Positions 5,548 to 39,771 of a stretch of DNA of 64,000 bases are shown here, one piece after another. The position numbers and the translations under genes were made by a program. The notes under the pieces were generated by a model, which was given only the letters and a program-made list of their open reading frames with translations, was not told the DNA's origin and did not search any database. Position 1 is the stretch's first letter. Each line of letters begins with the position of its first letter. The stretch is from an uncultured bacterium (lineage in GTDB: Bacteria > Babelota > Babeliae > Babelales > Vermiphilaceae), in the NCBI GenBank assembly GCA_963713925.1, contig OY970212.1, positions 640,001 through 704,000 of the forward strand, written 5' to 3'.

Positions 5548-5690
5548 GAGCTTATATGAAAATTAAGCATTCTAAGTACAAAGGGTTGGTTGTCATGCTG
5601 AACTTGTTTCAGCATCCAGGTTAAGTAGATCCTGAAATAAATTCAGGATGACGTAGCAAAAAGGAACTTCTGGGATTTTCGGATAAGCTC
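5548..5690. mobile_element. 143-bp MITE (empty copy) with TAA target duplication
   Basis: TIRs GAGCTTATATGAAAA / TTTTCGGATAAGCTC; TAA at 5545-5547 and 5691-5693; second copy at 38411-39748. Confidence 0.85.
5592..5652. repeat. REP-doublet-like palindrome inside the MITE
   Basis: GTCATGCTGAACTTGTTTCAGCATC ... GATCCTGAAATAAATTCAGGATGAC: two hairpins that are inverted copies of each other; repeated at about 39650-39710. Confidence 0.75.
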
Positions 5691-8600
5691 TAAAGTGTGC
5701 ATCGACTCATAACATGATGAGAAGCAAGCGTGTTAAGAAGATCAAATGATACTGACACTTTCAATTGTGTGCTGATTGCAATTTGAACACTGTTTTCAGT
5801 CAAAGAAACGATCAATGGCACAGAGCCATTACTCAAAAGAGCTTTGATTGATTGTAACAGTGATGCATCTGCGCTGTCAGGAATGGACAACTCAATATGT
5901 GACATATCATTCCAGTGCTCAAAGAGAAGTTCTATTGGAACCATCTGGTTTGCTTTAATTTTACATTTTTGGACTGATGTGCCATCAACGCCGCCTTTGA
6001 CCAAGAAGACTTGGTGTGTTCCCAGCCACGGCTCAATTTTTTGATACAGTTTTGGAAACACAATAATTTCAGCCGTGTTAGAGCCATCTTCTAATGTCAA
6101 AAATGACATGCGCTCACCTTTTTTGGTGACAATATCCTTGCGTCCTTTTAATAACCCGGTTACGCAAACGACGGTTTCTTTATCGGGGGGGAGATTGATG
6201 CCAGCCGTAAGGGCCTGCTCAAAAGAGATTGTTTTGAAATAACGCAACTGATTTTGATATGTCTCAAGGGGATGCGAACTCAAGTAACATCCAATAACTT
6301 CCTGTTCTTTTTCTAATTTTTCTTTATCAGTAAATTCCGCGCGTTGCGCGAAGCCATATTCTTGTTGATCGGCACCTGGTTTTTTGAGCATGCCAAACAA
6401 ATCCATTTGACCGGTTAGTTCAGCTTTCTTTTGTGCGAGCGCCTGTTCGATAATGATTCCCAGTTCCTCAGTTTTTTGTGCGCGGTTGCCCGGAAGACCA
6501 TCAAGAGCTCCTGCCCAAATCAAATGTTCAATGACTCGTTTGTTTGCAGTGCGCAGATCAACTCGTTTGCAAAAATCGAGCATGCCGCTGAATGGTTTTT
6601 TATTTCGCTGTTCAATAACATTTTCAAGCGCGGCCAATCCAACATTTTTGATCCCCTGTAATCCAAACAGAATTTCCCTGTTGACTACGCTGAAATGAAT
6701 ATCAGATTTATTAATATCGGGGGCAACAATGGTAAGCCCCAAAGCTTTTGCCTCTTGGATGTAAAACACCATTTTCTCAGCGTTGGTTGCTTCAAGGGAG
6801 ATGAGGCATGCCAAGAATTCTGCCGGGTAATTTGCTTTCAAATAGGCGGTTTGATATGCAATAAGGGCGTAGGCGGCTGAGTGGGACTTATTAAAACCGT
6901 AGCCTGCAAAATATTCCATCAAATCAAACAGTTCACCGGCTTTTTTTGTATCAAATTGCTTTGATTGCGCACGTTCTAAAAATATGGCACGTTGTTTTGC
7001 CATCTCTTCAGCTTTTTTCTTACCCATTGCGCGGCGTAAAATGTCTGCTTCTCCAAGGGAATAGCCACCAATTGCTGATGCAATTTTCATAACCTGTTCT
7101 TGGTAGACAATCACGCCATACGTTTCTTGCAAAATCGGCTCAAGATCTGAAAATAGATATGAAATTTTTTGACGGCCATGGCGACGTTCGATATAATCGT
7201 CAACCATTCCAGAGCCAAGCGGCCCCGGTCGATAGAGTGCGTTAACGGCGATAATGTCTTCAAATTTATCCGGCTTGAGCTTGCGCAATACATCTTTCAA
7301 TCCATCAGATTCAAGTTGGAATACGCCTGACGTTTTTCCCTCGCAGATGAGTTTGAATGTTTTTTCATCATCAAGAGGCAGCTTATCAATATCAAGATCA
7401 ACGCCATGATTTTTTTTAATCATCGCAACTGCATGATCAATGAGCGTTAAGTTTTTGAGTCCCAAAAGATCGATTTTAAGAAATCCTAAACTCTCAAGCT
7501 CGGTCATGGCATATTGTGTGACGAGCTCATTCGTTTTTGGGGGCACATAAACCGGCAATACATCTTCAATCGGTTCGGGAGATATCACGATTCCGGCAGC
7601 ATGTTTTGACGCATGGCGTGTGATGCCTTCTAGGCGAAATGCAAGGTCAAAGAGTTTATGCGCACGGGGATTTTGCTCGATAAGTTCTTTCAGTCGCGGT
7701 TCTTGTTCAAGTGCTTCTGTGAGCGTTATTTTCAATTGCTCCGGGATGAGGTTTGTGATGCTGTTTGAATCTTCAAATGAAAACCCGAGCGCGCGCGCAA
7801 CATCTTTGATAACACCTTTTGCAAGCATGGTTCCAAAAGTGATGATTTGACACACCTTATCATGTCCGTAGCGATCACGAATGTATTGAATGACCCGTTC
7901 ACGCCCATTAATGCAAAAATCGATATCGATATCAGGCATGGTGATACGTTCAGGATTCAAAAACCGCTCAAAGAGCAAATTATATTTAATGGGATCGATA
8001 TTGGTGATTTCAAGGGTCCATGCAACGAGTGATCCGGCTGCCGATCCACGACCCGGGCCAACAGGAATTCCATTGCGTCGAGACCATTGAATAAAATCGG
8101 AAACAACTAAAAAATATCCAACAAATCCCATGGAAATAATGAGCTTGATTTCAAGTTCCAATCGATCTTTATACAATTCCTTTTGCGACACCGGAATGCG
8201 CCCTTGCGATACAAGCGTCTCAAATCCACGATAGCAGAGATGGCTGAAATAAGTCTCTGGAGTATGATCATCGGGAATTTGAAATTTTGGGAAAAAAAGT
8301 TTTCCTGTTTCAAAATCAAAGGTGCAGCGATCTGCAATTTTACCGCTGTTCCACACTGCTTCCGGACGGTCTTTGAAAATTTCTAGCATTTCTTCTTGGG
8401 TGCGCATATATACACGACAATCGCCAAAAGTATAGCGATCAGGATTGCTCATTTGATCATGCGTTTGAATGGCAAGCATGACCTCATGCGCTTCATGATC
8501 TTGCAGTGTTGGATAGTGGCAATCACCGGCTGCAACGAGCTGAATGTTTTTGCGCGCACTCCACTCATACAATCTTTGATTTAAAACGGCTTGCTCTTTT

Positions 8601-9136
8601 TGATCTTCCGGCTGCACTTCAAAATAAAAACGATCTGGTCCGAACACGCGCAAAAACCAGTCCATGCGATCTGCTGCCAGTTCATATTTTTCTTGCATGA
8701 GCAGTTGCGGGATATGTCCGCCCAGACATGCGGTGGTGACAATAAGGCCTTCGTTATATTTTTCAAGCAATTGATAATCGATTCGCGGTTTAAAATAAAA
8801 ACCCGCTTGAAACGAATATGATATGAGCTTGCACAGATTTTTATATCCGATCTGATTTTCAACAATAATCAACAAGTGATAGTATTTTTTTTCAGCATCT
8901 TTGATCGCAGTGTCTTCAGTTAAATATGCTTCAATGCCCAAAACCGGCTTGATACCGGCTTTTTTGGCCATCTGGAAGAATTTTACCGCACCGAAAATAT
9001 TGCCATGATCACTAATTCCAAGCGCCTTGACTTTGTTGTCTTTTCCAAACTTGATCAGCTTATCGAGCGTGATCGCGCCATCAAGGAGTGAATAGTCTGT
9101 ATGCAAATGAAGATGAGTAAAGTGTTGATTTGACAT
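5690..9136 (-). CDS. dnaE: DNA polymerase III alpha subunit
   Basis: PHP HLHLHTDYSLLDG, GPGRGSAAGS, MPDIDIDF, YGFNKSH and C-terminal OB fold. Confidence 0.98.
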   Translation of the reverse strand: MSNQHFTHLHLHTDYSLLDGAITLDKLIKFGKDNKVKALGISDHGNIFGAVKFFQMAKKAGIKPVLGIEAYLTEDTAIKDAEKKYYHLLIIVENQIGYKNLCKLISYSFQAGFYFKPRIDYQLLEKYNEGLIVTTACLGGHIPQLLMQEKYELAADRMDWFLRVFGPDRFYFEVQPEDQKEQAVLNQRLYEWSARKNIQLVAAGDCHYPTLQDHEAHEVMLAIQTHDQMSNPDRYTFGDCRVYMRTQEEMLEIFKDRPEAVWNSGKIADRCTFDFETGKLFFPKFQIPDDHTPETYFSHLCYRGFETLVSQGRIPVSQKELYKDRLELEIKLIISMGFVGYFLVVSDFIQWSRRNGIPVGPGRGSAAGSLVAWTLEITNIDPIKYNLLFERFLNPERITMPDIDIDFCINGRERVIQYIRDRYGHDKVCQIITFGTMLAKGVIKDVARALGFSFEDSNSITNLIPEQLKITLTEALEQEPRLKELIEQNPRAHKLFDLAFRLEGITRHASKHAAGIVISPEPIEDVLPVYVPPKTNELVTQYAMTELESLGFLKIDLLGLKNLTLIDHAVAMIKKNHGVDLDIDKLPLDDEKTFKLICEGKTSGVFQLESDGLKDVLRKLKPDKFEDIIAVNALYRPGPLGSGMVDDYIERRHGRQKISYLFSDLEPILQETYGVIVYQEQVMKIASAIGGYSLGEADILRRAMGKKKAEEMAKQRAIFLERAQSKQFDTKKAGELFDLMEYFAGYGFNKSHSAAYALIAYQTAYLKANYPAEFLACLISLEATNAEKMVFYIQEAKALGLTIVAPDINKSDIHFSVVNREILFGLQGIKNVGLAALENVIEQRNKKPFSGMLDFCKRVDLRTANKRVIEHLIWAGALDGLPGNRAQKTEELGIIIEQALAQKKAELTGQMDLFGMLKKPGADQQEYGFAQRAEFTDKEKLEKEQEVIGCYLSSHPLETYQNQLRYFKTISFEQALTAGINLPPDKETVVCVTGLLKGRKDIVTKKGERMSFLTLEDGSNTAEIIVFPKLYQKIEPWLGTHQVFLVKGGVDGTSVQKCKIKANQMVPIELLFEHWNDMSHIELSIPDSADASLLQSIKALLSNGSVPLIVSLTENSVQIAISTQLKVSVSFDLLNTLASHHVMSRCTL

Positions 9137-9166
9137 AGCGTGGTTGATAAAGCTGATATGACTGAT

Positions 9167-9601
9167 TTACTTTTTATACTCATACATCGGGAGGACGTCA
9201 ATGCTTGGCTCTTCGTACGGATGAACTTCTTTAATGGCCGCTATCACTTGATCAAGAATAGTAATCGGACATGGCATTTGAATCGTTTCTTCGGGAACCA
9301 CTTCTAAAGTGCCTTTTTTCCCGATAGCCGGATTCGCTTTATCATTTGGTAAGAATCTGCCAAAGCCTTTATAGGAAAAACTGCAATGTGTATAGTTGCC
9401 AATAACTCCCGCCCCAGCCTTTCCCATTGCTTCTCGCACGGCATCCGCATGTTCTTCAGGAACAGTGACGACGACAGTCACCGTTGATGAAAATGGAAGC
9501 TGCGATCGTGAAGGCATTTTAGACATGAAAATAAATCCTATTATGCCCGTAAATACTAACCAAAAAATTATTATAAAGGGTATATTCATACTATGCCTCA
9601 A
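9167..9601 (-). CDS. YqfO/NIF3 insert-like (CutA/PII-like) domain protein with N-terminal TM segment
   Basis: V.VP..HAD.VREAMGKAGAG.IGNY..CSF...G.GRF and HPYEEP. Confidence 0.8.
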   Translation of the reverse strand: MRHSMNIPFIIIFWLVFTGIIGFIFMSKMPSRSQLPFSSTVTVVVTVPEEHADAVREAMGKAGAGVIGNYTHCSFSYKGFGRFLPNDKANPAIGKKGTLEVVPEETIQMPCPITILDQVIAAIKEVHPYEEPSIDVLPMYEYKK

Positions 9602-10488
9602 ACGATGTTTTGAATTTGTTCACGAATCTTTTCAAGCTCAACTTTGATGTTGATGGCATGTGAACTAATGGTAGCATCGGAGCATTTCGCCGTGATTGTG
9701 TTAATTTCTCTGCCGAGTTCTTGCAACGTAAAATCAAGTCGTTTGCCTTTTTCAATCGTTGAAGATTGTAACAATTTTTGTATCGCTTCTAAATGGCTTT
9801 TGAATCGAACAATCTCTTCATGAATATCAATCTTATCTAAATAAGCAAACAAAGCATTTTTTTGAGCATCGGCGAATTTGCTTTCATCGGTGCCCAGCTC
9901 TTTCATGGTTTGTGCGATTTTCTGCTTTTGAGCCTCAACAAGAGCGACTGACAGCGATTGTATAGTATCGATCTCTTTTTGAATGATACTCAAGCGATAG
10001 GTAATATCTTTTAAAAGAGTAGCGCCTTCTTTTTCTTGCGCCGTAATTAATTTTTGAATGGTACTCGCAATCAAGTTAAAAATGATCTGCTTCGACTTTT
10101 CATCAAGTGCAACTTCTTCTGAGGTGAAAACATTCGGTAATGTCACGAGTGTATCTATGGTAAGTGAACCCTCAGGATTGAATTCTTTTTTGATGTTCTT
10201 GACAGCATCAAGATAACCGGCAATCACTTCCAGAGAGGGTTCAACACGAGCTTTTAATACGTGCTGATTGCTCATGTTGATGCCGACAAACAGATTCCCA
10301 CGAATCAATTTCTCTTTCAGTAACGACTGAATGTCTGTTTCAAGCGAATTCAATGCGTAGGGGAGTTTGAATGTTGTTTCAAAAAAACGAGCATTCAGCG
10401 ACTTTAGTGAGAGGGTTAATTGTGATTTTGTTTTTTCATCACGAGAAAGCGTTGTCGTTTCTGTGGCAAATCCGGTCATACTGCGCAT
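9598..10488 (-). CDS. yicC: YicC/YloC family endoribonuclease
   Basis: MRSMTGF, DI.EEI.R..H, GKRLDF..QE..REINT and EKIREQIQNI. Confidence 0.92.
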   Translation of the reverse strand: MRSMTGFATETTTLSRDEKTKSQLTLSLKSLNARFFETTFKLPYALNSLETDIQSLLKEKLIRGNLFVGINMSNQHVLKARVEPSLEVIAGYLDAVKNIKKEFNPEGSLTIDTLVTLPNVFTSEEVALDEKSKQIIFNLIASTIQKLITAQEKEGATLLKDITYRLSIIQKEIDTIQSLSVALVEAQKQKIAQTMKELGTDESKFADAQKNALFAYLDKIDIHEEIVRFKSHLEAIQKLLQSSTIEKGKRLDFTLQELGREINTITAKCSDATISSHAINIKVELEKIREQIQNIV

Positions 10489-10502
10489 TTTTCTTATTCT
10501 CC

Positions 10503-11216
10503 CTACTCCATATTGGCGTAAACGTTTTTGACATCTTCATGCTCTTGAACAGCGTCTAAAAACGCAACGACCTTTTCGGTTTGCTCAGGAGTGAGGCTTG
10601 TGGTATTTTTTGGGACCCATTCCATTTCGGCACTCTCGACTTTTAACCCTTTGTTTGCAAGGGTATTTTTGATTTTATCAAGTGCTTTTGGATCACAAGT
10701 GATAGTAAATATCCCCTCGGAACTTGATATGTCTTTAATCTCATAATCGAGTAACAATTCAAGCAGTTCATCTTCTGATGTTTTTCCGCTAACGCGAATG
10801 ACCCCGAGTCGTTCAAACATCCAGCTCACCGATCCAGTCTCGCCAAGCGTTCCGCCGTTGCTTGAAAAAAGGAAACGAAGTTCTGCGACGGTTCTATTTT
10901 TATTATCTGAAAGAGTTTCAAGCATGACGGCAACTCCATACGGGCCATAGCCCTCATAGGTGAATTCTTCATAGCTTTGTCCGGGAAGTTCACCGGTTCC
11001 TTTTTTGATTGCGCGTGTTGTGTTTTCAAGCGGCATGTTAATATCGCGCGCTTTATCCATTAAAAGGCGAAGCCGTGGATTACCGTCAGGATCGCCACCG
11101 CCCACGCGTGCTGCAACCGTAATTTCTTTGATTAATTTAGTGAATGCTTGTCCACGTTTTGCATCTTCTTTGGCTTTTTTATGCTTAATCGTCGCCCAAT
11201 GGGAATGCCCTGCCAT
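10503..11216 (-). CDS. yebC: YebC/PmpR family protein
   Basis: MAGHSHWATIKHKK, YEGYGPYG and DNKNRT. Confidence 0.95.
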   Translation of the reverse strand: MAGHSHWATIKHKKAKEDAKRGQAFTKLIKEITVAARVGGGDPDGNPRLRLLMDKARDINMPLENTTRAIKKGTGELPGQSYEEFTYEGYGPYGVAVMLETLSDNKNRTVAELRFLFSSNGGTLGETGSVSWMFERLGVIRVSGKTSEDELLELLLDYEIKDISSSEGIFTITCDPKALDKIKNTLANKGLKVESAEMEWVPKNTTSLTPEQTEKVVAFLDAVQEHEDVKNVYANME

Positions 11217-11335
11217 GTGCAGTCCTCTCTAAAATTTCGATTCTGTTTGATAATGGTATTTGTTATATTCTTTATGGTATCCTGTAAATTAAATTCTGTC
11301 GATATGAAATCTGAGTGAGGCTTTCATTCACGATT

Positions 11336-11450
11336 GGGGTCCCCAATTGAGGGTCCCATGCGTAAGCCCGGCGATAGCATGGGTAAAGTGGGAGCGAAGC
11401 GAAGTTGGGCCCCATACGAAGCCCCTGAAGTATGGGTAAAAAGTTGGGGT
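11336..11450. repeat. Nested cluster of GGNCCC-arm...arm-GGGT palindromic repeats (family A)
   Basis: Outer GGGGTCCCCAATT...AGTTGGGGT encloses inner units at 11351-11384 and 11407-11437. Confidence 0.65.
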
Positions 11451-11471
11451 AACAAAAAGGAGTATTTCGCT

Positions 11472-11711
11472 ATGAAATATTGTTGTATGCCATGTTCTAT
11501 CAAATCGCGCATGAGAACCATAGCATTAGTATTCATGCTGGTATGTTGTCCAAAGTCTGTTCAATCAAATCCACCGCTTCCAACAATCCCCGGTGAACAG
11601 ATTGTAAAAATGATTCCGTATGAAGCGGGGTGGCTGACAGTGTTTTCCGTTCTGAGTATATTATGGATTGGATATGCGATAAAGGGCGATTTTGAAGAAG
11701 ATGGAGAGTAA
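11472..11711 (+). CDS. Small membrane protein
   Basis: AAGGAG RBS, signal-like segment and a C-terminal TM helix; the longer upstream ORF extension is repeat DNA. Confidence 0.5.
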   Translation: MKYCCMPCSIKSRMRTIALVFMLVCCPKSVQSNPPLPTIPGEQIVKMIPYEAGWLTVFSVLSILWIGYAIKGDFEEDGE

Positions 11712-11732
11712 AAACTAAAAATACATCTCATT

Positions 11733-13760
11733 TTATTTTTTTCCCAAATCAGTTGAAACGAGTGACGTCGAAGCAGCAGCATGCGCAGTTGGGTTTTCAT
11801 TTTCTTTTATCTTCTTTTTTCCGTCTGCCAACTTTGCTCTTTCAATACTCAGATCAAAGTATGCTTTCAATGCTTTTTTCGCCATTTCATCATTTTTCGT
11901 GCTGATTTCGTGCCCTTCCGCCAGCCATCCCTTTAATCTTTTTTCATCCAGTGATGCTGCAAATTTCATAAGCTCCAATTGTATCATTTGATTAAGCATG
12001 CCTTTTTTATTGACTCTTTTTAGAATAGGGTTCGTCATCTCAGAGACAAATCGAATCAATGCTAACATGGTAAATGAAAGCGGATAAGCACTATTGTTAA
12101 AAAGAATAGGTAATTTCCATTTACCTGGCGACGGGAGAATTGCCGATTGTTCTGCAAAGATTTGATCAAACGGCCGCGCACATTGAACCGTTGCCCTTCT
12201 TATCCTTGTTGCAATATCATAAACAGAAATTGTTTTACCAGTATCAGAAAGAGCTGCAATATTCCTGTTGCCCAAAAAAGCTAAAGATTTCGCAGGACGC
12301 GTTTCTCCCTCTCCTTCTCTTCCCAATTGAAAGGCGGTTACATTCGATAAATCATTTAAATCATGTTCAAAAACTATCACGGGGACACGATCGACGAGTG
12401 CACTGAATGTAAACATGCTTGAAAAAGGATCTTTTGGAAAAGCGAGAGCCCGAGCATACGACGTAAGCGCCTGGGTATCAGGACTATTTTCTTTTGTTGC
12501 AATAGTATGCACCACAATTCTTCCATTCATTCCTAATGCAATGCATTTTTTTGAGTCATTCGAAAATCTGATGTCGGTTATCAAATCACCTACCGGAATA
12601 ACAGCCACATTAGTTTCAGAAATACGCCTAACAGCCATTTGGTTATCTTCTATCGCACGAGCAAGGTATTTACCATCAGGAGAAATATCAAATGCTTTCG
12701 ATGGACCACTCATTTCATAAAGCTTTATTGCGGGGTCGCCTGGAATCACAAGTGCGATTTTTTTCTTGTCTTGCGCAAGCAATAAAATTCGAGGATTACC
12801 AATTGAACTTACCCTAACTTTGTCGCCCGATACATCCGGATTCAGAGAAAAACTTATTGGTTTATCGTCATTTAAATTTAATATTAATTGCCTTCTGTCA
12901 TTATCTAAGGCGACCTTATAATTTCCTTTCGCAGAAACTGCGTATGACACGATGTCCTTACGATCTTCAACAAAATCAGGAGATTCAAGAATTATATCAT
13001 TTATGTCAGACGCTAAACGAGATTCTGTAGAAGAAGAAACAATTCCCTCATGATCAAGCAATTCTCGGGGGGAGATATTAAACCTTGCTCCCATGTAGAC
13101 TTTAAAAATATCCGGATCATACGTTTCAAAGGAAGTGAGATATGAAAAAAAGCTCTTTTTGAATCCTTTTTGATTGATAATTTTTTCATAAAAATCCCCC
13201 CATAGAAATCCGTCACGCCCGGTCTTGATATCAAGATCATGTACCGTTTTTAAAAGCCGCGTAGAGTCTTGCTCGTTCGTTGTCTTGGGAAAAACCGGTA
13301 TATTTGAAGACGCTGAACCAGAACCAAGAAGATTGTCATATATAAATTTAAAATCGTCGACTCTTACTCCCGGAAGATGAATTATCGGCTTGAGGTCGAT
13401 GTTTGTCTTCAGTTTATAACCATACTTTTTTCTCATTTCTTCATTTTCAGGCTTATTTAACTGAGCGTGAAGTTCTTTTGCCCGCTTCTCTTTTTCCTGT
13501 TGCTTTAACTTTGACAAAAAATAGAAAGGGCTTTCCATGTAGGCGCGACTCTCTATTCTTCTTTTCAGTGATTGTGACCCCGATAAAACTGATGTCTCTG
13601 CAACGGGAAACTCTCCATCAGTAAGTTTAATTTTAAATCGCTCGGGAATTTTTTTTGCAGTTATCTCACTCGCTTTTGGCTGGTCAGATTTCGCTTCCGG
13701 TCTATCGGCCGCATAAACAAATGAGTTCAAAAAAAGGAATGCAATAATATATTTTATCAT
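11733..13760 (-). CDS. Secreted beta-propeller (WD40-like) protein with a divergent BTB/Skp1-like N-terminal region
   Basis: Signal peptide ..VYAAD; FDISPDGKYLA and ITDIRFSNDSK repeats. Confidence 0.7.
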   Translation of the reverse strand: MIKYIIAFLFLNSFVYAADRPEAKSDQPKASEITAKKIPERFKIKLTDGEFPVAETSVLSGSQSLKRRIESRAYMESPFYFLSKLKQQEKEKRAKELHAQLNKPENEEMRKKYGYKLKTNIDLKPIIHLPGVRVDDFKFIYDNLLGSGSASSNIPVFPKTTNEQDSTRLLKTVHDLDIKTGRDGFLWGDFYEKIINQKGFKKSFFSYLTSFETYDPDIFKVYMGARFNISPRELLDHEGIVSSSTESRLASDINDIILESPDFVEDRKDIVSYAVSAKGNYKVALDNDRRQLILNLNDDKPISFSLNPDVSGDKVRVSSIGNPRILLLAQDKKKIALVIPGDPAIKLYEMSGPSKAFDISPDGKYLARAIEDNQMAVRRISETNVAVIPVGDLITDIRFSNDSKKCIALGMNGRIVVHTIATKENSPDTQALTSYARALAFPKDPFSSMFTFSALVDRVPVIVFEHDLNDLSNVTAFQLGREGEGETRPAKSLAFLGNRNIAALSDTGKTISVYDIATRIRRATVQCARPFDQIFAEQSAILPSPGKWKLPILFNNSAYPLSFTMLALIRFVSEMTNPILKRVNKKGMLNQMIQLELMKFAASLDEKRLKGWLAEGHEISTKNDEMAKKALKAYFDLSIERAKLADGKKKIKENENPTAHAAASTSLVSTDLGKK

Positions 13761-13797
13761 GAAATTTCCCTTAAAAAATCCCTATTTTGTTATCAGC

Positions 13798-14823
13798 TCA
13801 CAATAATGTTCGTTGTCCCATAAAGCGCTGTTTTAAAAAGGGCAATGTTGCATGAGGGATTTGCCTACCGCGCGCGGTTTTTTCCAAATATCCCTTGCGC
13901 ATGAGATATGGTTCATAGACCGTTTCAATGGTTTCTTTATCTTCACCAATCATAGAAGCAATCGTTTCAAGCCCAACAGGGCCCCCCTGAAATTGCACAA
14001 CGATCTTTTCAAGAATCATAAGATCAACAGTGCTCAAGCCTTCACTATCGATACCCAAAAATGAAAGTGCTTGCCGCACAAATGCTTCATTCACCGCAAG
14101 TTCATTTTTTACTTGGGCAAAATCGCGCACACGTCGGAGTAACTTTTTGGCTATACGAGGCGTGCCCCGTGCCCCTTTAGCGATCATGAGAGCCGATTCA
14201 TGTGAAAGAGCAAAATCTAAAAACGAGGCACTTTGTAAAACAATCTGTGCCAAATCATCATCAGTATAATAATCAAGTCGTTCAATAATGCCAAAACGGC
14301 TATGCAGCGGAGCAGAAATCATACCGCTTTTGGTAGTTGCGCCCACCAAAGTGAATGGATTCACCGGCAAATTCATCGATTTAGCGCCCGCACCTTGGCC
14401 AATAATGATATCAACACGAAATTGTTCCATAGCGGTGTAGAGTACTTCTTCAACATTCGCGCTCATACGATGAATTTCATCGATAAATAAAATATCTCGC
14501 TTTTCAAGTGATGATAAAATGGCTACCAAATCGCCCGTTCGCTCAAGCATAGGGCCGGAACATATTTTAATACCGACGCCCATCACAGAAGCCATAATTT
14601 GCGAAAGTGTTGTTTTGCCCAATCCCGGAGGCCCAAAAAGAAGCAGGTGATCGAGTGGTTCGCCGCGCATTTTTGCTGCCTGCGTGTAGATATGTAATTT
14701 TTCTTTGAGGTCTTTTTGACCGAGATAGTGATCAAAAGTTGTGGGCCTAAACTCATGATGAGCTTCTTCCTGCGTTTGAGCAAAAGAAACAATATCTATT
14801 CCTTCAAATGATTCATTATTCAT
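13798..14823 (-). CDS. ruvB: Holliday junction branch migration helicase RuvB
   Basis: GPPGLGKTT, LFIDEIHR, GATT, SRFGI and GGPVG. Confidence 0.97.
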   Translation of the reverse strand: MNNESFEGIDIVSFAQTQEEAHHEFRPTTFDHYLGQKDLKEKLHIYTQAAKMRGEPLDHLLLFGPPGLGKTTLSQIMASVMGVGIKICSGPMLERTGDLVAILSSLEKRDILFIDEIHRMSANVEEVLYTAMEQFRVDIIIGQGAGAKSMNLPVNPFTLVGATTKSGMISAPLHSRFGIIERLDYYTDDDLAQIVLQSASFLDFALSHESALMIAKGARGTPRIAKKLLRRVRDFAQVKNELAVNEAFVRQALSFLGIDSEGLSTVDLMILEKIVVQFQGGPVGLETIASMIGEDKETIETVYEPYLMRKGYLEKTARGRQIPHATLPFLKQRFMGQRTLL

Positions 14824-15122
14824 GAGTAAGCCTCTTAATACAAATTACTTATTGCATTATCTTTGCTTAAGCATACTGAATTTGCGCACATACTTGAAGA
14901 GAAGATAGAGAGTCTGCAAATATAATAAAAGAAAGGAAGTACGCTTTAAAAGATTAACTTTGAAATTTTGTTCGGAAATTTGACAGGGCAACCATTTTTA
15001 AGGTGCGATTTAAATACCTTAATACCAATATTATCGGGCTCCCCAACGACTTGTCACGCCATAGCCTTGGGGCGAAGGCTGAAGCAGAGCGTTGTTGGGG
15101 CATGTTTACCGGGGAGAGCAGG

Positions 15123-15473: not shown

Positions 15474-15668
15474 TCACAATTCCACGCGCGCGTGTATCAT
15501 TGAAATGGAATTAAAAGTCCGAGTAAGCGTATCTCATTTGCACCACATACCCGAAGAGAATCAGAAAATACAAGCTGAAGTGAAGGGATTTTTCATTGCA
15601 GTATTGTTGTTTTATATTCTATTATAAAAAAGCGATGCCAGTAAGGATGAATTCATGCGAGGGGTGCT

Positions 15669-32026: not shown

Positions 32027-32042
32027 TTTTTTTGGAGGTTTC

Positions 32043-33056
32043 ATGAATAAGCTAGTTAAATATATATTTTTTTCTTGTTTCGTAACAAACATTCCTGCGC
32101 ATGCTTTTTGGCATGAGGTTCAGCGTGGAGTTGCAGAGTTGCAATCGAAACGGCTTAGAGATGAAGTAGCTCAATCAGATTCATTTACTATGACAATACA
32201 TCGCGTCTCTAAACCGATAGAGCAATGGGTTACACAAGCAGTGAATTCTTTCGGTGTCTCGGGAAATATTGATACATATGTTGATTCAACTGCTGAGTTT
32301 GCGTCAGCTCATGGAGCCAGGTCTGTTCGTGTGAGTCCTAATATAGCATCATTCATTGCGCTTGATGCAGCAAAACAAAATAATCCAAAATTGTGGTACC
32401 CATGGTCCAAAAAAAGCAACATTCAATGCATAGACCATAATAATCGAGACTTATCTTCATCTCATCTGTTTTTTCAAAGCAACCAATTTAAATCGGCATT
32501 TAGTAAAAAATATCTCGTCAAATTTGGAGATATTGATCAGCGATCACTGATACGTGGTATCCTTGCGCATGAAGCAGGCCATTTAAAACATTATGATTCA
32601 GCGTCGATTTTGCTCACGGTTGCGCAAAGCTTAACAGGGGGAACCATAGCCCTTATTAAATTAGGGGTTTTGATAGTGGGAGGAAGCTTTGTGACCGGGA
32701 TTGGAGCAACGAAATGTATGGAAAGTAAAGATGATAAAGTACAAATCGGAGCTGTGGGAGCGATTTTGGGCGCTATGACTGGGTTTGGTATAGCTGAGGT
32801 CTCATCAGGCCTTTGTAATTTGAAATTGAAAGCTACTGAGCGCGCTGCTGATGCAAATGTTCCGAACGATCCTGAACTTCTTTTTGCAAACTATCAATGG
32901 CTTAATCAAAATCCTTCTAACGCAGAGGATCGGGATTACCGAAAAGTCGGTGGTTTTTTTGATTTAAGTAATCATCCATCAGATCAAGAACGAGCTGCAT
33001 ATTTCAAAAAGCGATATGAAGAGTATATGAAGAATAATTCTGCAGAATCAAAATAA
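32043..33056 (+). CDS. M48-like zinc metalloprotease
   Basis: GILAHEAGH, ERAAD and HPS..ER motifs. Confidence 0.8.
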   Translation: MNKLVKYIFFSCFVTNIPAHAFWHEVQRGVAELQSKRLRDEVAQSDSFTMTIHRVSKPIEQWVTQAVNSFGVSGNIDTYVDSTAEFASAHGARSVRVSPNIASFIALDAAKQNNPKLWYPWSKKSNIQCIDHNNRDLSSSHLFFQSNQFKSAFSKKYLVKFGDIDQRSLIRGILAHEAGHLKHYDSASILLTVAQSLTGGTIALIKLGVLIVGGSFVTGIGATKCMESKDDKVQIGAVGAILGAMTGFGIAEVSSGLCNLKLKATERAADANVPNDPELLFANYQWLNQNPSNAEDRDYRKVGGFFDLSNHPSDQERAAYFKKRYEEYMKNNSAESK

Positions 33057-33077
33057 TTCGATTTCAAAGTTAATGTA

Positions 33078-33121
33078 AAAAAACTTTTAAGTCTCTATAA
33101 AACGGGACTTAAAAGTTTTTT
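33078..33121. terminator. Bidirectional hairpin terminator
   Basis: AAAAAAACTTTTAAGTC...GACTTAAAAGTTTTTT. Confidence 0.6.
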
Positions 33122-33174
33122 ACGTTATGATACCATTAATGCATCGTATTACAATGTAAAAAAAGGTATTTCTT

Positions 33175-33939
33175 GTGTTATTCATAATCCTAATCGCCTT
33201 TATGGCATGTGGCGGAGCGAATGCAATTAGTAGAGAAGATGTTGTTGAGCAGGAATGCGTTAAGGCATATGAGAGTGCCAAAAGCATGTCTCGCACGAAC
33301 AAACTACAGCGTGGTGCGATTGTGCTAACGGTGAGCGGAAGCATCTTGTATCTTGCGTATCGCGTTTTGAACCATAAATCTGAAACTGATCGAGAAACCG
33401 GGACGCTGTTGCATCCATCATTTGCAACTTTAGGGTGGTGGTATAAAATTGGCGTTTTATCGCGAGATCTTTTTATCGCTATGGCCTGTGCTGATGGCGG
33501 CATTATGTGCGCGCGCAGCTTTCTGAAATCTTTTTTTCATTCGGGCGATTTGCAATGGTTTGTTACGACGCATGCGAACATATATGAAACCTACAAACAG
33601 CTTGAAAGATTAAGAGGGAAAGAGGGCGATTACATTGAGAGCATGCGCTGTATGTATGCACAAGCACTATTTAAAGAACTAGTCGCTATTGATGGCTTTA
33701 TTCGATACAAAATAGAGCAACTGTATAAGCAGGGAGATCGATATGCACAACAGCTTGAAACTCGATTGAAGCGAAGCATCACGCATATATTATATATGAT
33801 TTCTGACCAGCAAGTGCGTGATATTTCAAAAGAATGGGAATTTATTGATTCAGTGTGCATCAATTTTGCTCAATGGGAATATTATCAAATGGCATCGTTA
33901 GAAGACCGTGGCCCATCGTCTCATTTATGGATGGAATGA
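33175..33939 (+). CDS. Hypothetical membrane protein
   Basis: 254-aa ORF with signal/TM segments; GTG start uncertain. Confidence 0.6.
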   Translation: MLFIILIAFMACGGANAISREDVVEQECVKAYESAKSMSRTNKLQRGAIVLTVSGSILYLAYRVLNHKSETDRETGTLLHPSFATLGWWYKIGVLSRDLFIAMACADGGIMCARSFLKSFFHSGDLQWFVTTHANIYETYKQLERLRGKEGDYIESMRCMYAQALFKELVAIDGFIRYKIEQLYKQGDRYAQQLETRLKRSITHILYMISDQQVRDISKEWEFIDSVCINFAQWEYYQMASLEDRGPSSHLWME

Positions 33940-33942
33940 AAA

Positions 33943-34332
33943 ATGAACAAGACAGATTCTCTGCAAGCGCTTGTTACGCGTATTGACACATTTATGAAAG
34001 AGCGCACGTGGCGAGCGTTTCATGATCAACAAAGCATGCTCATGGCTTTATCGGTGGAAGTCGGTGAACTTATGGAGCATTTTTTGTGGCATAAAAAAGA
34101 AGATTTGCCGCGTGTGATGCGCGACAAGAAAGAACTGATTTCGCACGAATTTGCTGATGTATTTGTTGCATTGATAGAATTCGCACTGATTAGTGATATT
34201 TCTATAGAGCAATCGGTTGAGCAAAAGCTTGCCATTTTAGAGAAAAGATACCCTGCGAAAGAAGTATCAGATATGAACCCTGATCAGTTGCGTTCTTATA
34301 AAGAAAAAAGAAAAAAAGACGGATACAAATAA
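33943..34332 (+). CDS. MazG-like nucleotide pyrophosphohydrolase
   Basis: ERTW..FH...ALSVEVGELMEHFLW...EFADV...K...RYP. Confidence 0.88.
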   Translation: MNKTDSLQALVTRIDTFMKERTWRAFHDQQSMLMALSVEVGELMEHFLWHKKEDLPRVMRDKKELISHEFADVFVALIEFALISDISIEQSVEQKLAILEKRYPAKEVSDMNPDQLRSYKEKRKKDGYK

Positions 34333-34336
34333 GGAG

Positions 34337-34558
34337 GTTCGAATGGTTCGACTTCACTACGTTTTAACCCCAATCTACGCTACGCTACGATCGGAGACCC
34401 CGTTACGCTCACCACGAACGCGGTTTAGTCTCCATTTGTTTGATATTGATCAAAATCCGTGCAGGCAATTTCCGAGAAAAAACGAATTTTCTCTAGGGAA
34501 TATGCGATAATCCCTCCGTTCGTGGTGAGCGGAGTGCAACGAGTCGAACCATTCGAAC
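34337..34558. repeat. Inverted REP-like pair (family C) with a family A unit inserted in the left arm
   Basis: GTTCGAATGGTTCGACT..CGCTCACCACGAACG is inverted to CGTTCGTGGTGAGCG..AGTCGAACCATTCGAAC. Confidence 0.75.
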
Positions 34559-34606
34559 GTACGAAAAAGATGTTGAATCTTGAGAAATATTTTAAAATAG
34601 GATCAC

Positions 34607-37195
34607 ATGCTCGAACAATTGCAACAAGCTGAATACACGCCCTTAATGAAGCAGTATTTTCAGATTAAAAATGAGTTTCCCGATGCGCTTCTTTTTTTCC
34701 AAGTCGGTGATTTTTATGAGCTCTTTTTTCAAGACGCAGTCACCGCATCTTCGTTTCTGGGCATCGCGCTCACCAAACGTGGAAAAATAAATGGCGAACC
34801 GATTCCTTTGTGCGGTGTGCCGATTCATGCATTAGATCATTATTTGACCAAACTTGTTAAAGCGGGATATAAAATTGCACTGTGTGACCAGCTTGAGCCG
34901 GCGGTTGCCGGAAAGGTGGTTTCCCGCGGCGTTACGAAAGTTTTGACTCCCGCGACAGTAACGCAAGATACATTGCTTGATGCAAAAAGTGCTTCCTATT
35001 TGCTTTCATGCGCGACTGAGAATGGTCAGTGTGCACTGGTGTTCGCAGAACTGCTTACCGCGCAATTATATGCGACAGCCATTCCGGTTGATCAATTGAA
35101 GACGATTGAAGCAGAACTTTCCCGCTTTTTCCCCAGTGAAGTGGTGATTGATCAGAATGATCAATCAGATTTGAAATCATACTTTAAACGCATGGGATAT
35201 TTTGTATCAACCGTCGACAAGGCGACTGTCGATGAGCAGAAATCAGATGGATGGAAGACGCAATTAAAAGGCGTTTCCAATGATCTTTCAATCGAACGTA
35301 AAAATGCGTTTGATGTCGCTCTTTCCGCTTTTTATGCTTACATGAGCAAAAATCAACAAAGCGCGATTGATCAATTTCGCCTCATTAATTGGTACGAATC
35401 TGATGATTTTCTCATTCTGGATGCACCGACGGTGCGCAATTTAGAGCTTGTGGCAAATAATCATGATGGCAGTAGTAAGAACTCATTGTTCAGTGTTCTT
35501 GACCATGCATGCACCCCAATGGGCTCTCGCATGATCAAAAAATGGATTTTGCGCCCGTTGACTGCTCGTGAACCGATTCTGCAGCGGCAAGCAATTGTGC
35601 AGCAGTATGTTCAAAATTCGCAGTTGTGTGAAGCGACACGAAACGTGTTACTTCATATTGGAGACCTTGAGCGCATTGTCGGACGAATGGCGCTTTATCG
35701 ATCACCACTGTCAGATTATCGATCATTACTTGATATCCTGCGCGTGTTGCCCGAATGTGTGAGCATCACCAAAAGCCTTGAGCATTTGCCACTCATGAAG
35801 GTCATCAGATCATACATCAGTGATTTTGCACAACTGCATGAGCTTCTTGAGCGTGCGATAAATATTGATCCAATGCATGAGTGGATGATTAAAGCGGGAT
35901 TTGATGCGACGCTTGATAGTTATCGTGAACTCATTGCTCATGCACATGAAAAAATTGTTGATCTTGAACGGGCCGAACAGGGGCGGCTTGGCATCAATTC
36001 GCTCAAAATCAGATACAATCAAGTTACGGGTTATAGCATAGAGATTACCAAAACACATCTTGAAAAAATTCCCGATGATTACAAACGATTGCAAACATTA
36101 GTCGGCAAAGAGCGTTACATCACGCCTGCGCTTGCGCAATTGCAGCACGATATTAATGCCGCACGCAATAGCATTGAACAGCTGGAAAAAGAATTATTCG
36201 ACTCAGTCAAGCGATCAGTGGCTGCGCAAAGTTCGCGTCTGCGTAAATGTGCGCATGCATTGGCACATTTGGATGCGCTGATTTCATTTGCTGACTCGGC
36301 ATATCATCAGGGCTATGTGTGTCCGACATTTATTTCTGAAAAAAGGTTTTCAATCGTGGGTGGCAAACATCCACTTCTCTCGCAAACATTGAGCCATAGC
36401 TTTATTGCCAATGACACGGAGCTCGATGCGCTTCAGGCGATTCATATCATCACGGGGCCTAACATGGGCGGTAAATCGACCTATTTGCGCCAAACGGCAC
36501 TCATTGCCATCATGGCACATACGGGTAGTTTTGTGCCGGCATCAAGCTGTGAGCTCTCCTTGATCGATCGTATTTTCACTCGAATTGGCTCAGGGGATAA
36601 CTTGGCACAAGGAAAGAGCACATTCTTGGTTGAGATGGAAGAAACGGCAACGATTTGCACGCAAGCAACAGCCCGCTCGCTGGTGATTCTTGATGAGGTC
36701 GGTCGCGGCACCAGCACCTTTGATGGACTTGCTCTCGCACAAGCGATTGTTGAATTTTTAAGCGAGCGTGCAGTGTCGACATTATTTGCGACACATTATC
36801 ATGAATTAGCACTTTTAGAAAAGACACGCCCGGGCATCGTGAGCTTCCATGCTGCATGCAAAAAAGCTGATAGAGGCATTTTGTTTTTACATAAAATTGT
36901 CAAAGGGGTGGGCGACGGGAGCTTTGGAATTGAAGTTGCCAAACTTGCCAATGTGCCGGAAGCTATTATTGAGCGCGCACAAGAAATTGCGCTGTCGCTA
37001 GAAATGACGCCAACACATTCTTATCAACCGGCACAGCGAGACGTGCCGAATAGCGAATCGGGAATGCATCAAAAAGAATTAGAATCTCGATTGAAAGCTT
37101 ATGAAGACAAGTTGGCAATATTTAATAGTATCAACATTGATGATTTATCCCCACGTCAGGCTTTTGATTTGGTACTAAAAATAAAAGCGATGTAA
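34607..37195 (+). CDS. mutS: DNA mismatch repair protein MutS
   Basis: TPLMKQY, GDFYELF, TGPNMGGKSTYLRQ, STFLVEM, DEVGRGT and FATHYHEL. Confidence 0.97.
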   Translation: MLEQLQQAEYTPLMKQYFQIKNEFPDALLFFQVGDFYELFFQDAVTASSFLGIALTKRGKINGEPIPLCGVPIHALDHYLTKLVKAGYKIALCDQLEPAVAGKVVSRGVTKVLTPATVTQDTLLDAKSASYLLSCATENGQCALVFAELLTAQLYATAIPVDQLKTIEAELSRFFPSEVVIDQNDQSDLKSYFKRMGYFVSTVDKATVDEQKSDGWKTQLKGVSNDLSIERKNAFDVALSAFYAYMSKNQQSAIDQFRLINWYESDDFLILDAPTVRNLELVANNHDGSSKNSLFSVLDHACTPMGSRMIKKWILRPLTAREPILQRQAIVQQYVQNSQLCEATRNVLLHIGDLERIVGRMALYRSPLSDYRSLLDILRVLPECVSITKSLEHLPLMKVIRSYISDFAQLHELLERAINIDPMHEWMIKAGFDATLDSYRELIAHAHEKIVDLERAEQGRLGINSLKIRYNQVTGYSIEITKTHLEKIPDDYKRLQTLVGKERYITPALAQLQHDINAARNSIEQLEKELFDSVKRSVAAQSSRLRKCAHALAHLDALISFADSAYHQGYVCPTFISEKRFSIVGGKHPLLSQTLSHSFIANDTELDALQAIHIITGPNMGGKSTYLRQTALIAIMAHTGSFVPASSCELSLIDRIFTRIGSGDNLAQGKSTFLVEMEETATICTQATARSLVILDEVGRGTSTFDGLALAQAIVEFLSERAVSTLFATHYHELALLEKTRPGIVSFHAACKKADRGILFLHKIVKGVGDGSFGIEVAKLANVPEAIIERAQEIALSLEMTPTHSYQPAQRDVPNSESGMHQKELESRLKAYEDKLAIFNSINIDDLSPRQAFDLVLKIKAM

Positions 37196-37214
37196 TTATT
37201 TTGCAATAATGGTT

Positions 37215-38255
37215 CTAGTGTAGATCTATTTTATGAATAGTTACTCTATTATGGCCGTAATTGCAAACCGCTAAATAGTTCCCGTCAGGAGAAATTGAAA
37301 AGCCATGAGGGAAGCTCAATTGGGCATCCGGATTAGTCAGCGCACATTCCTTATGGAGTATATGACCGGTACTTGAATCAAAAGCATATACCACGATTGA
37401 ATCATTTCCTTGATTTGAGATAAAGATATGAGATCCGTTTGGATGAAATGCAATATTTTCCGGCACATCAAGATCCAAGGATTGAGAATAAAAGACGGGT
37501 TGAGGATTGAGAGATCCGCCCTGAGCATCAAACTTGAACGTTGCAACAGCTGCAATCGTATTGTTAGCAATAGTGCTTGCCCGTAAAGAATAGACTGCTG
37601 CTAGATAACGAGAATCAGGCGAGAAGTCTATGCCTTTGGGTTTCAGGGGATAAAAAACATTTTCCAAAGATGAGCAGAACTCAAAATTATCAGTTCCCTC
37701 TTTCTTTTTACACATATGTATGTAACCGGGTCTATTAATAGTGGTGTATGCCAAGAATTGGCAACTCGGAGAAAATCTAACGCCATGGGTGTTATATTCG
37801 CCATTTATCCCCTGTATAGTTTTTAAAAAATGTAATTGACTATCAGGACTGAGCGAATAGAGGTTTATTTTTGCACGGCTTTCTTTGAGTGGCACGTGAT
37901 CATACAAACTAACAGCATAATATTTTTTATCTTTTGATACATGATCCAGTTCAGGATTACCATTTAGATTTTGCATGACTTGTACAATTTCTGCATGAGA
38001 GCCATTAATGCGATATACATAAATCGATTTATCATAGAGGTTTGAAATAATTAACGTATGTTCGTCAAACCAACTTACACTCGTGCAGGTAGAATATCTT
38101 GATTTGCTTTCTTTAACCTGTAAGCGAAAATCAGAACTAATATTTTCCATCGTGCTGGCGGGCAGAGTGATGGAAAATAATGGTTTGTTATCTATGGTTA
38201 AGCAGTTAATAAAATTACACGCAAACAGGCTTACTATAATCATTTTATTGTTCAT
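37215..38255 (-). CDS. Lactonase-like beta-propeller protein
   Basis: HGVRFSP, PKGIDFSPD, PENIAFHPNG and PHGFSISPDG repeats. Confidence 0.8.
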   Translation of the reverse strand: MNNKMIIVSLFACNFINCLTIDNKPLFSITLPASTMENISSDFRLQVKESKSRYSTCTSVSWFDEHTLIISNLYDKSIYVYRINGSHAEIVQVMQNLNGNPELDHVSKDKKYYAVSLYDHVPLKESRAKINLYSLSPDSQLHFLKTIQGINGEYNTHGVRFSPSCQFLAYTTINRPGYIHMCKKKEGTDNFEFCSSLENVFYPLKPKGIDFSPDSRYLAAVYSLRASTIANNTIAAVATFKFDAQGGSLNPQPVFYSQSLDLDVPENIAFHPNGSHIFISNQGNDSIVVYAFDSSTGHILHKECALTNPDAQLSFPHGFSISPDGNYLAVCNYGHNRVTIHKIDLH

Positions 38256-38472
38256 ACAATTCTCTTTTTTTAAGCAGATCGTTAAAAAATTTATCTGGCA
38301 TTCGCTTGTTCTCGATCGAATTAGGATTCTTTTCTAAAAATTTTTTAAATGTAACTTCGATTTGAGCATAGCAAACAATTTTTTGAGAGCCAATCCCGTA
38401 TTTTGGATAAGAGCTTATACGAAAATTAAGCTTTCTAGCTAAAAAGTAATTGTGTTAAAAGTCAATTAATTT

Positions 38473-39414
38473 TTAAGCACTACATACTTCGCCCTTTTTC
38501 AAGATAACATTTGCAATGATGATCAGCTTTCGCATTACTGCAACAATAGCTACTTTAAAGCTTTTTTTGTTTGCTATTAGTCGATCATAAAAGGATTTTA
38601 AAGGAGCATAATACTTAATAGTCGTTATAGCACACATATATAATGCATTTCGAGGAATAATCCTACCGCCTTGAATGAACCGTTTGCCTGTATAGTTGCC
38701 ACTTTCTCGATCGTAAGGACAAACTCCGACAAGGGCTGCTATTTCATTATTGCTTACAGATCCAAGTTCAGGCACAAACGAAATCAATATCGCGGCCGAA
38801 GATTTACCGATTCCCGGGATTGATTCCAAAAGCTCTGTCCGTTTCTGCAGTACCGCATCTTGATCAATCAATTCTTCAATTTGTTCATCCAAAGCCTTGA
38901 TCTCTTTATTTAAAAAGAGGATCATTCTTTCGATACTTGAAACACCGAGTGCATGCGAGGGGTGTTTAAGTCGAGTTTTTTCAGTTGCCAAAAATTTGGT
39001 CAAATCCTGCTTTCGATTAACCAAAGATAGCAATGTTTCTTGGTTATGAGTTCTGCTGACTGGCTCATAATCTTGAGAATTCTTCGATGCAAATTCAGCA
39101 ATTTTTTGTGCGTCTATTTTGTCTGTTTTGCTTTTGCAACCAGTTGCGATTATAAAACCCTTTATCCTCCGTGGATCAACTATCCAACAACTATAGGAAT
39201 GTTCCTGTAATACCCGAGTAAGCAATTTTTCGTAACCACCGGTTGCCTCACATGCAATTTGCTTAATACTGTAATTGGATAATTGCTTCACAAACTTTTT
39301 TATTCCGCTTTCTGTATTGGGTATTTTAACCCATTGCTTCAACGGATGAATAAAAATGTCCAAATTGTTCTTTGAAATATCGACGCCGATAAATACTTCT
39401 GGTAGGGTAATCAT
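38473..39414 (-). CDS. IS110 family DEDD recombinase/transposase
   Basis: FIGVDISK, CEATGGY, KTDKIDA (RuvC-like DEDD), SIPGIG and P..RESG catalytic Ser. Confidence 0.96.
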   Translation of the reverse strand: MITLPEVFIGVDISKNNLDIFIHPLKQWVKIPNTESGIKKFVKQLSNYSIKQIACEATGGYEKLLTRVLQEHSYSCWIVDPRRIKGFIIATGCKSKTDKIDAQKIAEFASKNSQDYEPVSRTHNQETLLSLVNRKQDLTKFLATEKTRLKHPSHALGVSSIERMILFLNKEIKALDEQIEELIDQDAVLQKRTELLESIPGIGKSSAAILISFVPELGSVSNNEIAALVGVCPYDRESGNYTGKRFIQGGRIIPRNALYMCAITTIKYYAPLKSFYDRLIANKKSFKVAIVAVMRKLIIIANVILKKGEVCSA

Positions 39415-39625
39415 AAATACCTCATCCTTGTAAACATTCGAGGTCGTATTAATACGCCTCTAGTAATTGTTCGAGGTAATTTCGTATAAGCTGATAGTCT
39501 CAAACTTTTTAGCAATCGATTACGATTAGGGTTGGCGCGAGCTCTATCAGCTTTTCCCGAGCAACTAATTTGTGAAACAATATACCGATCACAAATTAAT
39601 ACATTATCTATCAAAATTTGAATCA
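39415..39625 (-). ncRNA. Predicted bridge RNA (5' hairpin, target-binding loop, donor-binding loop)
   Basis: Guides match the target (39528-39535, 39505-39513) and donor (39462-39470, 39427-39432) and each pair is enclosed by stems; ends approximate. Confidence 0.88.
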
Positions 39626-39631
39626 ATTTTT

Positions 39632-39637
39632 AACATA
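39632..39637 (-). promoter_or_regulatory. -10 box (TATGTT) of the circle-junction promoter; -35 TTGACT at 38460-38465
   Basis: Joining the two ends gives TTGACT-17 bp-TATGTT. Confidence 0.75.
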
Positions 39638-39771
39638 CAAGGGTTGGTTGTCATGCCGAACTTGTTTCAGCACCAAGGTTAAGTAGATCCTGAAATAAAT
39701 TCAGGATGACGTAACAATAAGGAACTTCTGGGATTTTCGGATAAGCTCTAAAATAAATGGGAAATCAAAGA

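What the first reader, a model, noticed from the sequence alone, without database searches (positions are those of the whole stretch)
5548..39748. The bridge RNA targets a MITE, with filled and empty alleles in one window
The IS110 sits inside a 143-bp element. An empty copy at 5548-5690 aligns across the junction (core AG at 5582-5583), which fixes the IS ends exactly. The target lies about 8 bp from a REP-like double hairpin inside the MITE. IS621 is known to target REP sequences. Here the target is a TIR/TSD-bearing non-autonomous transposon, which would give the IS a self-multiplying intergenic safe harbour and possibly a second route of mobility as MITE cargo (inference).
Basis: partly seen in the sequence, partly recalled or inferred. 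Interest (0 to 1): 0.8.

Follow-up and report, generated by a model that had tools for sequence, protein, structure and literature searches.

The report
RNA-guided transposon filling an old MITE
All three copies of an RNA-guided IS110 jumping gene in this small bacterial genome sit at the same base inside a short, decayed, non-coding transposon (a MITE), and its predicted guide RNA matches that spot; this is a clean new example of a nesting habit already described in Coxiella, and there is no sign that the two now travel together.

Summary
Window 5548-5690 is an empty MITE. Window 38411-39748 is the same MITE split at a CT/AG core by a 1195-bp IS110. Genome-wide, 3 of 3 IS copies lie at this core. 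The MITE has 22 two-ended copies, 15 with identical 3-bp duplications (p=7e-5), and its terminal repeat equals that of an autonomous IS5 in a relative. The IS left end carries guide matches to target and donor. The 14-bp predicted target is perfect at exactly three sites, the three filled ones; 0 of 19 empty copies are perfect.

The speculative half fails. The arms around the three IS copies differ at 10-14 of 129 sites while the IS differs at 0-2 of 1195, which points to independent insertions, not MITE cargo. No IS5 transposase was found in the genome, and MITE copies are 4-23% diverged, so the harbour is not multiplying now.

Precedent exists: Coxiella IS1111 sits in QMITE2 in 20 of 21 cases. 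What differs here is that the guide reads the MITE arm, not its REP hairpin. My three look-ups of earlier scan notes returned no report of this arrangement.

The parts
5548..5690 (+). Empty MITE allele, 143 bp, IS5-type 16-bp terminal inverted repeats, TAA duplication at 5545-5547 and 5691-5693
5576..5589 (-). Unoccupied IS110 target (core 5582-5583); 2 mismatches to the 14-bp site predicted from the guides
5592..5652 (.). REP-like hairpin dimer inside the MITE
38411..38444 (+). Left arm of the filled MITE (terminal repeat and right-target half); TAA at 38408-38410
38445..39641 (-). IS110-family element from core to core (1195 bp counting one core); identical to the copy at G000 1.276 Mb, 2 substitutions from the copy at 1.122 Mb
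38473..39414 (-). IS110 recombinase, 313 aa; PF01548 + PF02371, NF033542 over cut-off; D12, E56, D98, D101, S238 invariant in a 5-sequence alignment
38447..38472 (-). Short right end (26 bp); holds the left donor and the -35 half of a predicted circle-junction promoter
39415..39639 (-). Long left end with predicted bridge RNA (39415-39600 folds at z = -4.2 into three stem-loops)
39528..39535 (-). Predicted left target guide (8-nt exact match)
39505..39513 (-). Predicted right target guide (9-nt match to this copy's target, 8 nt to the other two)
39462..39470 (-). Predicted left donor guide (9-nt match)
39427..39432 (-). Predicted right donor guide (6-nt match)
39642..39748 (+). Right part of the filled MITE (left-target half, REP-like dimer, right terminal repeat); TAA at 39749-39751

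Best explanation
An IS621-like IS110 element sits three times at the same CT core in the left arm of an old MITE with IS5-type ends, most likely by three independent insertions guided by a predicted bridge RNA that reads 14 bp of that arm. Inferred order of events: (1) an IS5-family transposase, still intact in relatives, amplified a ~143-bp MITE enclosing a REP-like dimer into TWA sites between genes; (2) that transposase was lost and the copies drifted 4-23% apart; (3) the IS110, whose guides fit this lineage's MITE arm, spread recently by circle-out and recombine-in and took every copy that still matched a long (7-bp or more, core included) right guide. The MITE is a static pool of intergenic landing sites, now without perfect free sites, not a vehicle.
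For: Shown: 3 of 3 IS copies at the same core and orientation. Guide matches of 8, 8-9, 9 and 6 nt lie in the expected loops; both target guides occurred together in 0 of 20000 shuffles of the left end. Against their own targets the guides match 12 of 12 non-core positions, against 9 relatives' targets 1-4 of 12; over 10 distinct guide pairs the cognate mean is 8.8 (18 loci) and the non-cognate mean 3.7 (162 comparisons, maximum 9). The perfect 14-mer occurs at 3 sites, all filled; 0 of 19 empty copies (Fisher p = 6.5e-4). Arms of filled copies differ at 10, 12 and 14 of 129 sites against 0, 2 and 2 of 1195 in the IS (p < 1e-10), and are 143 or 196 bp long. 15 of 22 identical 3-bp flanks, permutation mean 8.4, p = 7e-5. 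Same 16-bp terminal repeat bounds an 882-bp IS5-family element in G014. Established: bridge-RNA mechanism and longer right guides giving more specificity (PMC11208160).
Against: No RNA, circle or transposition was observed. The guide lengths in the 'perfect = filled' test were chosen after seeing the matches: with an IS621-length right target (2 non-core bases) 15 sites are perfect, of which 3 are filled, 7 are empty MITE sites and 5 are empty sites elsewhere; the clean split appears only from 5 non-core bases on. n is only 3. The tree puts the filled copies apart (0% of 200 bootstrap trees group them) but the AU test does not reject a clade (p = 0.108). No close relative was available to show a MITE-free or IS-free orthologous site.
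Confidence: 0.85

Rival explanations
1. MITE cargo: the IS entered one MITE once and the 1.34-1.39 kb composite was then moved by an IS5 transposase.
For: Two of three composites keep near-intact terminal repeats and matching duplications, TAA/TAA and TTA/TTA; 1.3-1.4 kb is not far above the 882-bp autonomous element. The AU test does not reject a clade of filled copies (p = 0.108). Gene conversion could have scrambled the arms afterwards.
Against: Arms differ by 8-11% while the IS differs by at most 0.2%; two internal MITE types are involved; one filled copy shares a diagnostic hairpin variant with empty copies. No IS5 transposase found in G000 by two Pfam families, tblastn and a phylum-wide protein search.
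Confidence: 0.06
2. The IS is really a REP-targeting element like IS621 or ISPpu10: the neighbouring hairpin is the determinant and the MITE is incidental.
For: The hairpin lies 8 bp 5' of the core on the target strand, the side on which ISPpu10 needs a stem-loop (abstract of 10.64898/2026.03.19.712850). Many relatives of this IS sit in REP-like hairpins (by inspection); in G155 one copy lies in a REP dimer inside IS5-type ends while two others lie in REPs without them.
Against: All 14 guide-matched bases lie outside the hairpin. The four REP units outside MITE-related loci lack the site and are empty. The proximal hairpin is weaker at all three filled sites (-4.1 to -5.3 kcal/mol) than at the empty window copy (-7.3), and its stem is disrupted in one.
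Confidence: 0.08
3. The match is accidental: an IS arriving from another host happened to fit a sequence in the MITE.
For: Horizontal spread of this IS clade is plausible from its patchy presence (19 of 261 genomes).
Against: A given 14-mer is expected 0.011 times in this genome by composition. The MITE arm was not found in 40 relatives or by an exact-motif metagenome scan.
Confidence: 0.03

Closest known systems
IS1111 in QMITE2 of Coxiella burnetii (PMC5896051; passages read; also reviewed in PMC10969869)
   Same: An IS110-family element nests at a fixed place in a TIR/direct-repeat MITE that contains a REP (20 of 21 IS copies), with filled and empty alleles used to date insertions.
   Different: IS1111 group rather than IS110 group; the target there is described as the REP inside the MITE; no guide RNA analysis (2018); 7-11 bp direct repeats and no cognate transposase named in the passages read. 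Here the guides read the MITE arm and the ends belong to an identifiable IS5-family element.
IS621 and its bridge RNA (PMC11208160; passages read)
   Same: Long left end, short right end, CT core, two guide loops, promoter rebuilt at the circle junction; recombinase matches IS621 and ISCro4 chains at E about 1e-37.
   Different: IS621 targets REP units with a 4-bp right guide; here the right guide matches 8-9 bp and the target lies outside the hairpin.
IS4321 and IS5075 (known here only from titles in reference lists)
   Same: IS110-family elements that target the ends of another transposable element (Tn21-family terminal repeats).
   Different: IS1111 group; target is the terminal repeat of large autonomous transposons, whereas here it is a subterminal site about 35 bp inside a non-autonomous element.
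ISPpu9/MITEPpu9 (PMC12288879; passages read) and ISPpu10 (abstract only)
   Same: IS110 elements in intergenic repeats; a MITE-like element is part of the picture; ISPpu10 uses a 5' stem-loop beside its target.
   Different: MITEPpu9 is mobilised by the IS110 itself; here the MITE belongs to another family and is the target.

Membership tests
IS110 family, IS110 group | DEDD RuvC domain plus C-terminal domain with conserved serine | tested here: met
   PF01548, PF02371, NF033542 over cut-off; D12/E56/D98/D101/S238 invariant
IS110 family, IS110 group | Long non-coding left end, short right end | tested here: met
   225 bp upstream and 26 bp downstream of the gene
IS110 family, IS110 group | Insertion at a 2-bp core with no further duplication | tested here: met
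   Removing the IS and one core restores a gap-free MITE allele in 3 of 3 copies
IS110 family, IS110 group | Bridge RNA loops complementary to target and donor | tested here: met
   Four guide matches, fold z = -4.2, cognate versus non-cognate test; computational only
IS110 family, IS110 group | Circular intermediate and expressed bridge RNA | not testable with these tools
   Only contigs of DNA runs were available, no joint seen; the junction would form TTGACT-17 bp-TATGTT
MITE | Terminal inverted repeats, short, non-coding, multi-copy | tested here: met
   22 two-ended copies, 140-315 bp when empty, 16-bp repeats
MITE | Target-site duplication | tested here: met
   15 of 22 identical 3-mers; TAA/TAA 11, TTA/TTA 3, GAA/GAA 1; permutation p = 7e-5
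MITE | Ends shared with an autonomous element | tested here: met
   882-bp element in G014, NF033580 IS5 over cut-off; 22 of 23 bp at the right end, up to 19 of 19 at the left; the same repeat bounds other IS5 loci
MITE | Current mobility (helper transposase in the genome, identical recent copies, empty orthologous sites) | tested here: not met
   No helper found; closest pair 3.9% apart; orthologous empty sites could not be examined
CGTC-type REP dimers (PMC3733652) | Head-to-head palindrome pair with a terminal CGTC-like tag | tested here: inconclusive
   The dimer has this layout and occurs free of the MITE in G000, G011, G030, but the paper's consensus figure was not seen (passages only)

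The most novel reading that the evidence does not exclude
The bridge RNA guides were rewritten inside this lineage by copying from the MITE arm itself. The closest relative (72% protein identity) shares 121 of 149 aligned bases over this region, with the differences concentrated in the guides, yet the two match each other's targets at only 1 of 12 positions. This IS clade, hopping between lineage-specific repeats, would then be a natural record of templated guide acquisition.
Probability: 0.12. Interest if true: 0.75.

Novelty: new member of a known kind. Interest (0 to 1): 0.34.

Why it matters
It is a clean natural test of bridge-RNA targeting rules: one genome offers 22 diverged copies of a target, and occupancy follows the length of one A-run and a long right guide. 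It also gives a compact recombinase and guide with natural specificity that could be assayed, and a clade of related elements with nearly one scaffold and many guides, useful for asking how guides change. It does not establish a new mobility route.

Tried and rejected
1. A 13-nt match between the bridge RNA linker and the MITE's left terminal repeat looked like extra target pairing. Rejected: nearly the same linker is present in relatives with unrelated targets.
2. Helper transposase in G000: none with PF01609 or PF13340, best tblastn E = 0.2. Only a 30-codon Y1 transposase remnant was found.
3. Sequencing runs: no RNA holder listed. Laying 4 DNA runs gave contigs only, pieces from 2 runs, no joints, so no circle or empty allele was seen; this is not evidence either way, and X1 may be the source sample.
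4. Metagenome scans with the recombinase and with a MITE arm motif found nothing, so strain-level polymorphism is untested.
5. Tree of MITE copies: weakly resolved, no starred branch; AU test not significant.
6. The sigma-70 scan of the integrated locus found 2 sites against 4.7 expected.
7. Literature: 7 searches. None listed a paper on this element; the search for Dependentiae with insertion sequence terms returned 0. ISfinder, paywalled papers and supplements (such as target tables of PMC11208160) were not seen and may list other MITE-targeting IS110s. A keyword look into 10.64898/2026.08.14.744561 found no mention of MITEs. Of PMC13626964 only the abstract was read; of PMC3184786 and PMC11187229 only passages.
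8. One search failed on a pattern error and was rerun.
Full report
Setting. The window is G000:C1:640001-704000 of a 1.32-Mb, one-contig, 95.75% complete genome. Ankyrin proteins and a TLC ATP/ADP transporter in the window fit an intracellular bacterium. Two earlier scan notes call it Dependentiae; I did not test that label.

Observation. Window 5548-5690 is a 143-bp element with 16-bp inverted ends and TAA on both sides. At 38411-39748 the same element is interrupted by 1195 bp that encode a 313-aa IS110 recombinase (38473-39414, minus strand; PF01548, PF02371, NF033542). The two junctions share a 2-bp core, AG on the plus strand and CT in the sense of the gene, at 38445-46 and 39640-41. Removing the insert and one core gives a 143-bp allele that differs from the empty copy at 8 of 129 compared sites. 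The hairpin dimer begins 8 bp beyond the core.

The IS genome-wide. tblastn and blastn find three copies and no other homologue at E < 0.01. The copy at 1.276 Mb is identical and the copy at 1.122 Mb has two substitutions. All three lie at the same core, in the same orientation, in a MITE with different outer flanks.

Is the host element a MITE? I curated 22 copies with both ends. Left out of the counts were five partial or degenerate copies (141446, 319203, 910282, 933449, 1154468) and two lone end-like motifs (9239, 704575). 15 of 22 have identical 3-bp flanks; shuffling right flanks among copies gives 8.4 on average, p = 7e-5; TAA pairs with TAA 11 times and TTA with TTA 3 times, never mixed. 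The same 16-bp end bounds an 882-bp element with a 257-aa IS5-family transposase in relative G014, and other IS5 loci of the phylum; a 19-nt form of the end motif occurs in 58 of 261 genomes and the transposase in 33 of 261. So the MITE label is earned. All 22 copies lie between ORFs of 100 aa or more; two show overlaps of about 45 bp with my crude ORF calls. The hairpin dimer also occurs free of the MITE in G000, G011 and G030, so it is probably captured cargo (inference). The arms were not matched beyond the terminal repeat in any of 40 relatives.

Is it still multiplying? No IS5 transposase was found in G000. Among 21 aligned copies (993931 left out because of an insert in the arm; variable middles removed) pairwise distance is 3.9-23%, mean 13%. 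The burst is old, while the IS copies are recent.

The guide. The left end folds into three stem-loops, z = -4.2. In the second lie an 8-nt match to the left target plus core (39528-39535) and a 9-nt complement of core plus right target (39505-39513). In the third lie 9-nt and 6-nt matches to the donor junction (39462-39470, 39427-39432). In 20000 dinucleotide shuffles the single matches occurred 5, 172, 22 and 836 times and both target guides together never. This is the layout described for IS621 (PMC11208160). As a cross-species control I examined 30 loci of related elements (19 of 261 genomes carry one). Ends were found by motif in 21, and guides and both flanks were scorable in 18; 9, 2 and 1 loci were dropped at these steps, and L022 and L023 are the same element. 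Over 10 distinct guide pairs, guides match their own targets at 8.8 of 12 non-core positions and others' at 3.7; the G000 guides score 12 of 12 on their own and 1-4 on the rest. The joined ends would rebuild a sigma-70-like promoter, TTGACT-17 bp-TATGTT, as reported for IS110 circles. No RNA or circle was observed.

Occupancy. The site predicted by the guides (6 bases, core, 6 bases) is perfect at exactly three places once the IS copies are taken out in silico, and these are the filled sites; none of 19 empty two-ended copies is perfect (Fisher p = 6.5e-4). Most near misses differ in the length of an A-run. The caveat is that the length was chosen after seeing the data: with 2, 3 or 4 non-core right-target bases, 12, 9 and 5 perfect sites are empty, and only from 5 bases on are there none. 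The pattern fits the reported gain in specificity from long right guides. It also means the window's 'empty allele' is probably empty because it is a poor target (2 mismatches).

Cargo or independent insertion? If a composite had moved, arms and IS should be equally old. The arms differ at 10, 12 and 14 of 129 sites; the IS at 0, 2 and 2 of 1195 (p < 1e-10); the restored alleles are 143, 196 and 196 bp; and one filled copy shares a hairpin variant with empty copies. The tree never groups the three in 200 bootstrap trees, but it is poorly resolved and the AU test gives p = 0.108. Independent insertion is much the simpler reading.

MITE arm or REP? The 14 matched bases lie outside the hairpin; four free REP units lack the site; the nearest hairpin is weaker at the filled sites than at the empty window copy. 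A supporting role for the hairpin, as in ISPpu10 (abstract), is not excluded. By inspection many relatives sit in REP-like hairpins. Among 27 loci from other genomes only G155 L027 has an IS5-type end close by; there the IS lies in a REP dimer inside a degenerate TIR pair, and the two other copies examined lie in REPs without one. G000 is the only examined case in which the guide reads the arm.

Comparison with what is known. The element meets every IS110-group feature testable here. Nesting of an IS110-family element in a REP-containing MITE is published for Coxiella: 20 of 21 IS1111 copies are in QMITE2 (PMC5896051). Targeting of another transposon's ends is known for IS4321 and IS5075 (titles only). 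What this case adds is the guide-level explanation, an identifiable IS5 parent for the MITE, targeting of the arm, and occupancy that follows the long right guide.

Verdict. Real, well supported, and a new member of a known kind. The safe-harbour part holds in the static sense; the self-multiplying and cargo parts do not hold for this genome. Interest 0.34.

Noticed in passing
L072, L088 (G107), L080 (G156), L078 (G056), L085-L087 (G011), L027 (G155): IS5-type terminal repeat pairs enclosing REP-like hairpin dimers recur across the phylum with different REPs and different arms. This suggests repeated capture of REP dimers by IS5 MITEs, a possible DDE route for REP spread; copy families and duplications were not counted.
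   Followed up: partly
G000:C1 168082-168319, 191361-191628, 569148-569462, 873158-873392, 885937-886174, 1190612-1190810 and two filled copies: Longer MITE alleles carry 53-172 bp of extra hairpin modules in the spacer of the dimer; one module resembles the repeat that the 65%-identical IS110 of G156 targets (by eye).
   Followed up: partly
G000:C1 104377-104601, 141659-141874, 353985-354200, 1102706-1102921: Four short GIY-YIG ORFs, each flanked by hairpin repeats; the first lies between units of the same REP as in the MITE, the second next to a lone MITE left arm.
   Followed up: no
window 5690-5692: The stop codon of dnaE (5690-9136, minus) is formed by the last MITE base and the duplication; several other copies also abut a gene end within 1 bp.
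   Followed up: no
   Followed up: no
L043 (G156): One of three examined G156 copies lies at a site with a poor left-guide match, in sequence that looks coding rather than in a repeat: a likely off-target insertion.
   Followed up: no
window 45066-47504 (minus): 812-aa ORF with a C-terminal bacterial EndoU nuclease domain (PF14436, E 3e-10), followed by short ORFs: looks like a polymorphic toxin locus.
   Followed up: no
G000:C1 735855-735944: Short remnant of a Y1 (IS200-like) transposase.
   Followed up: no
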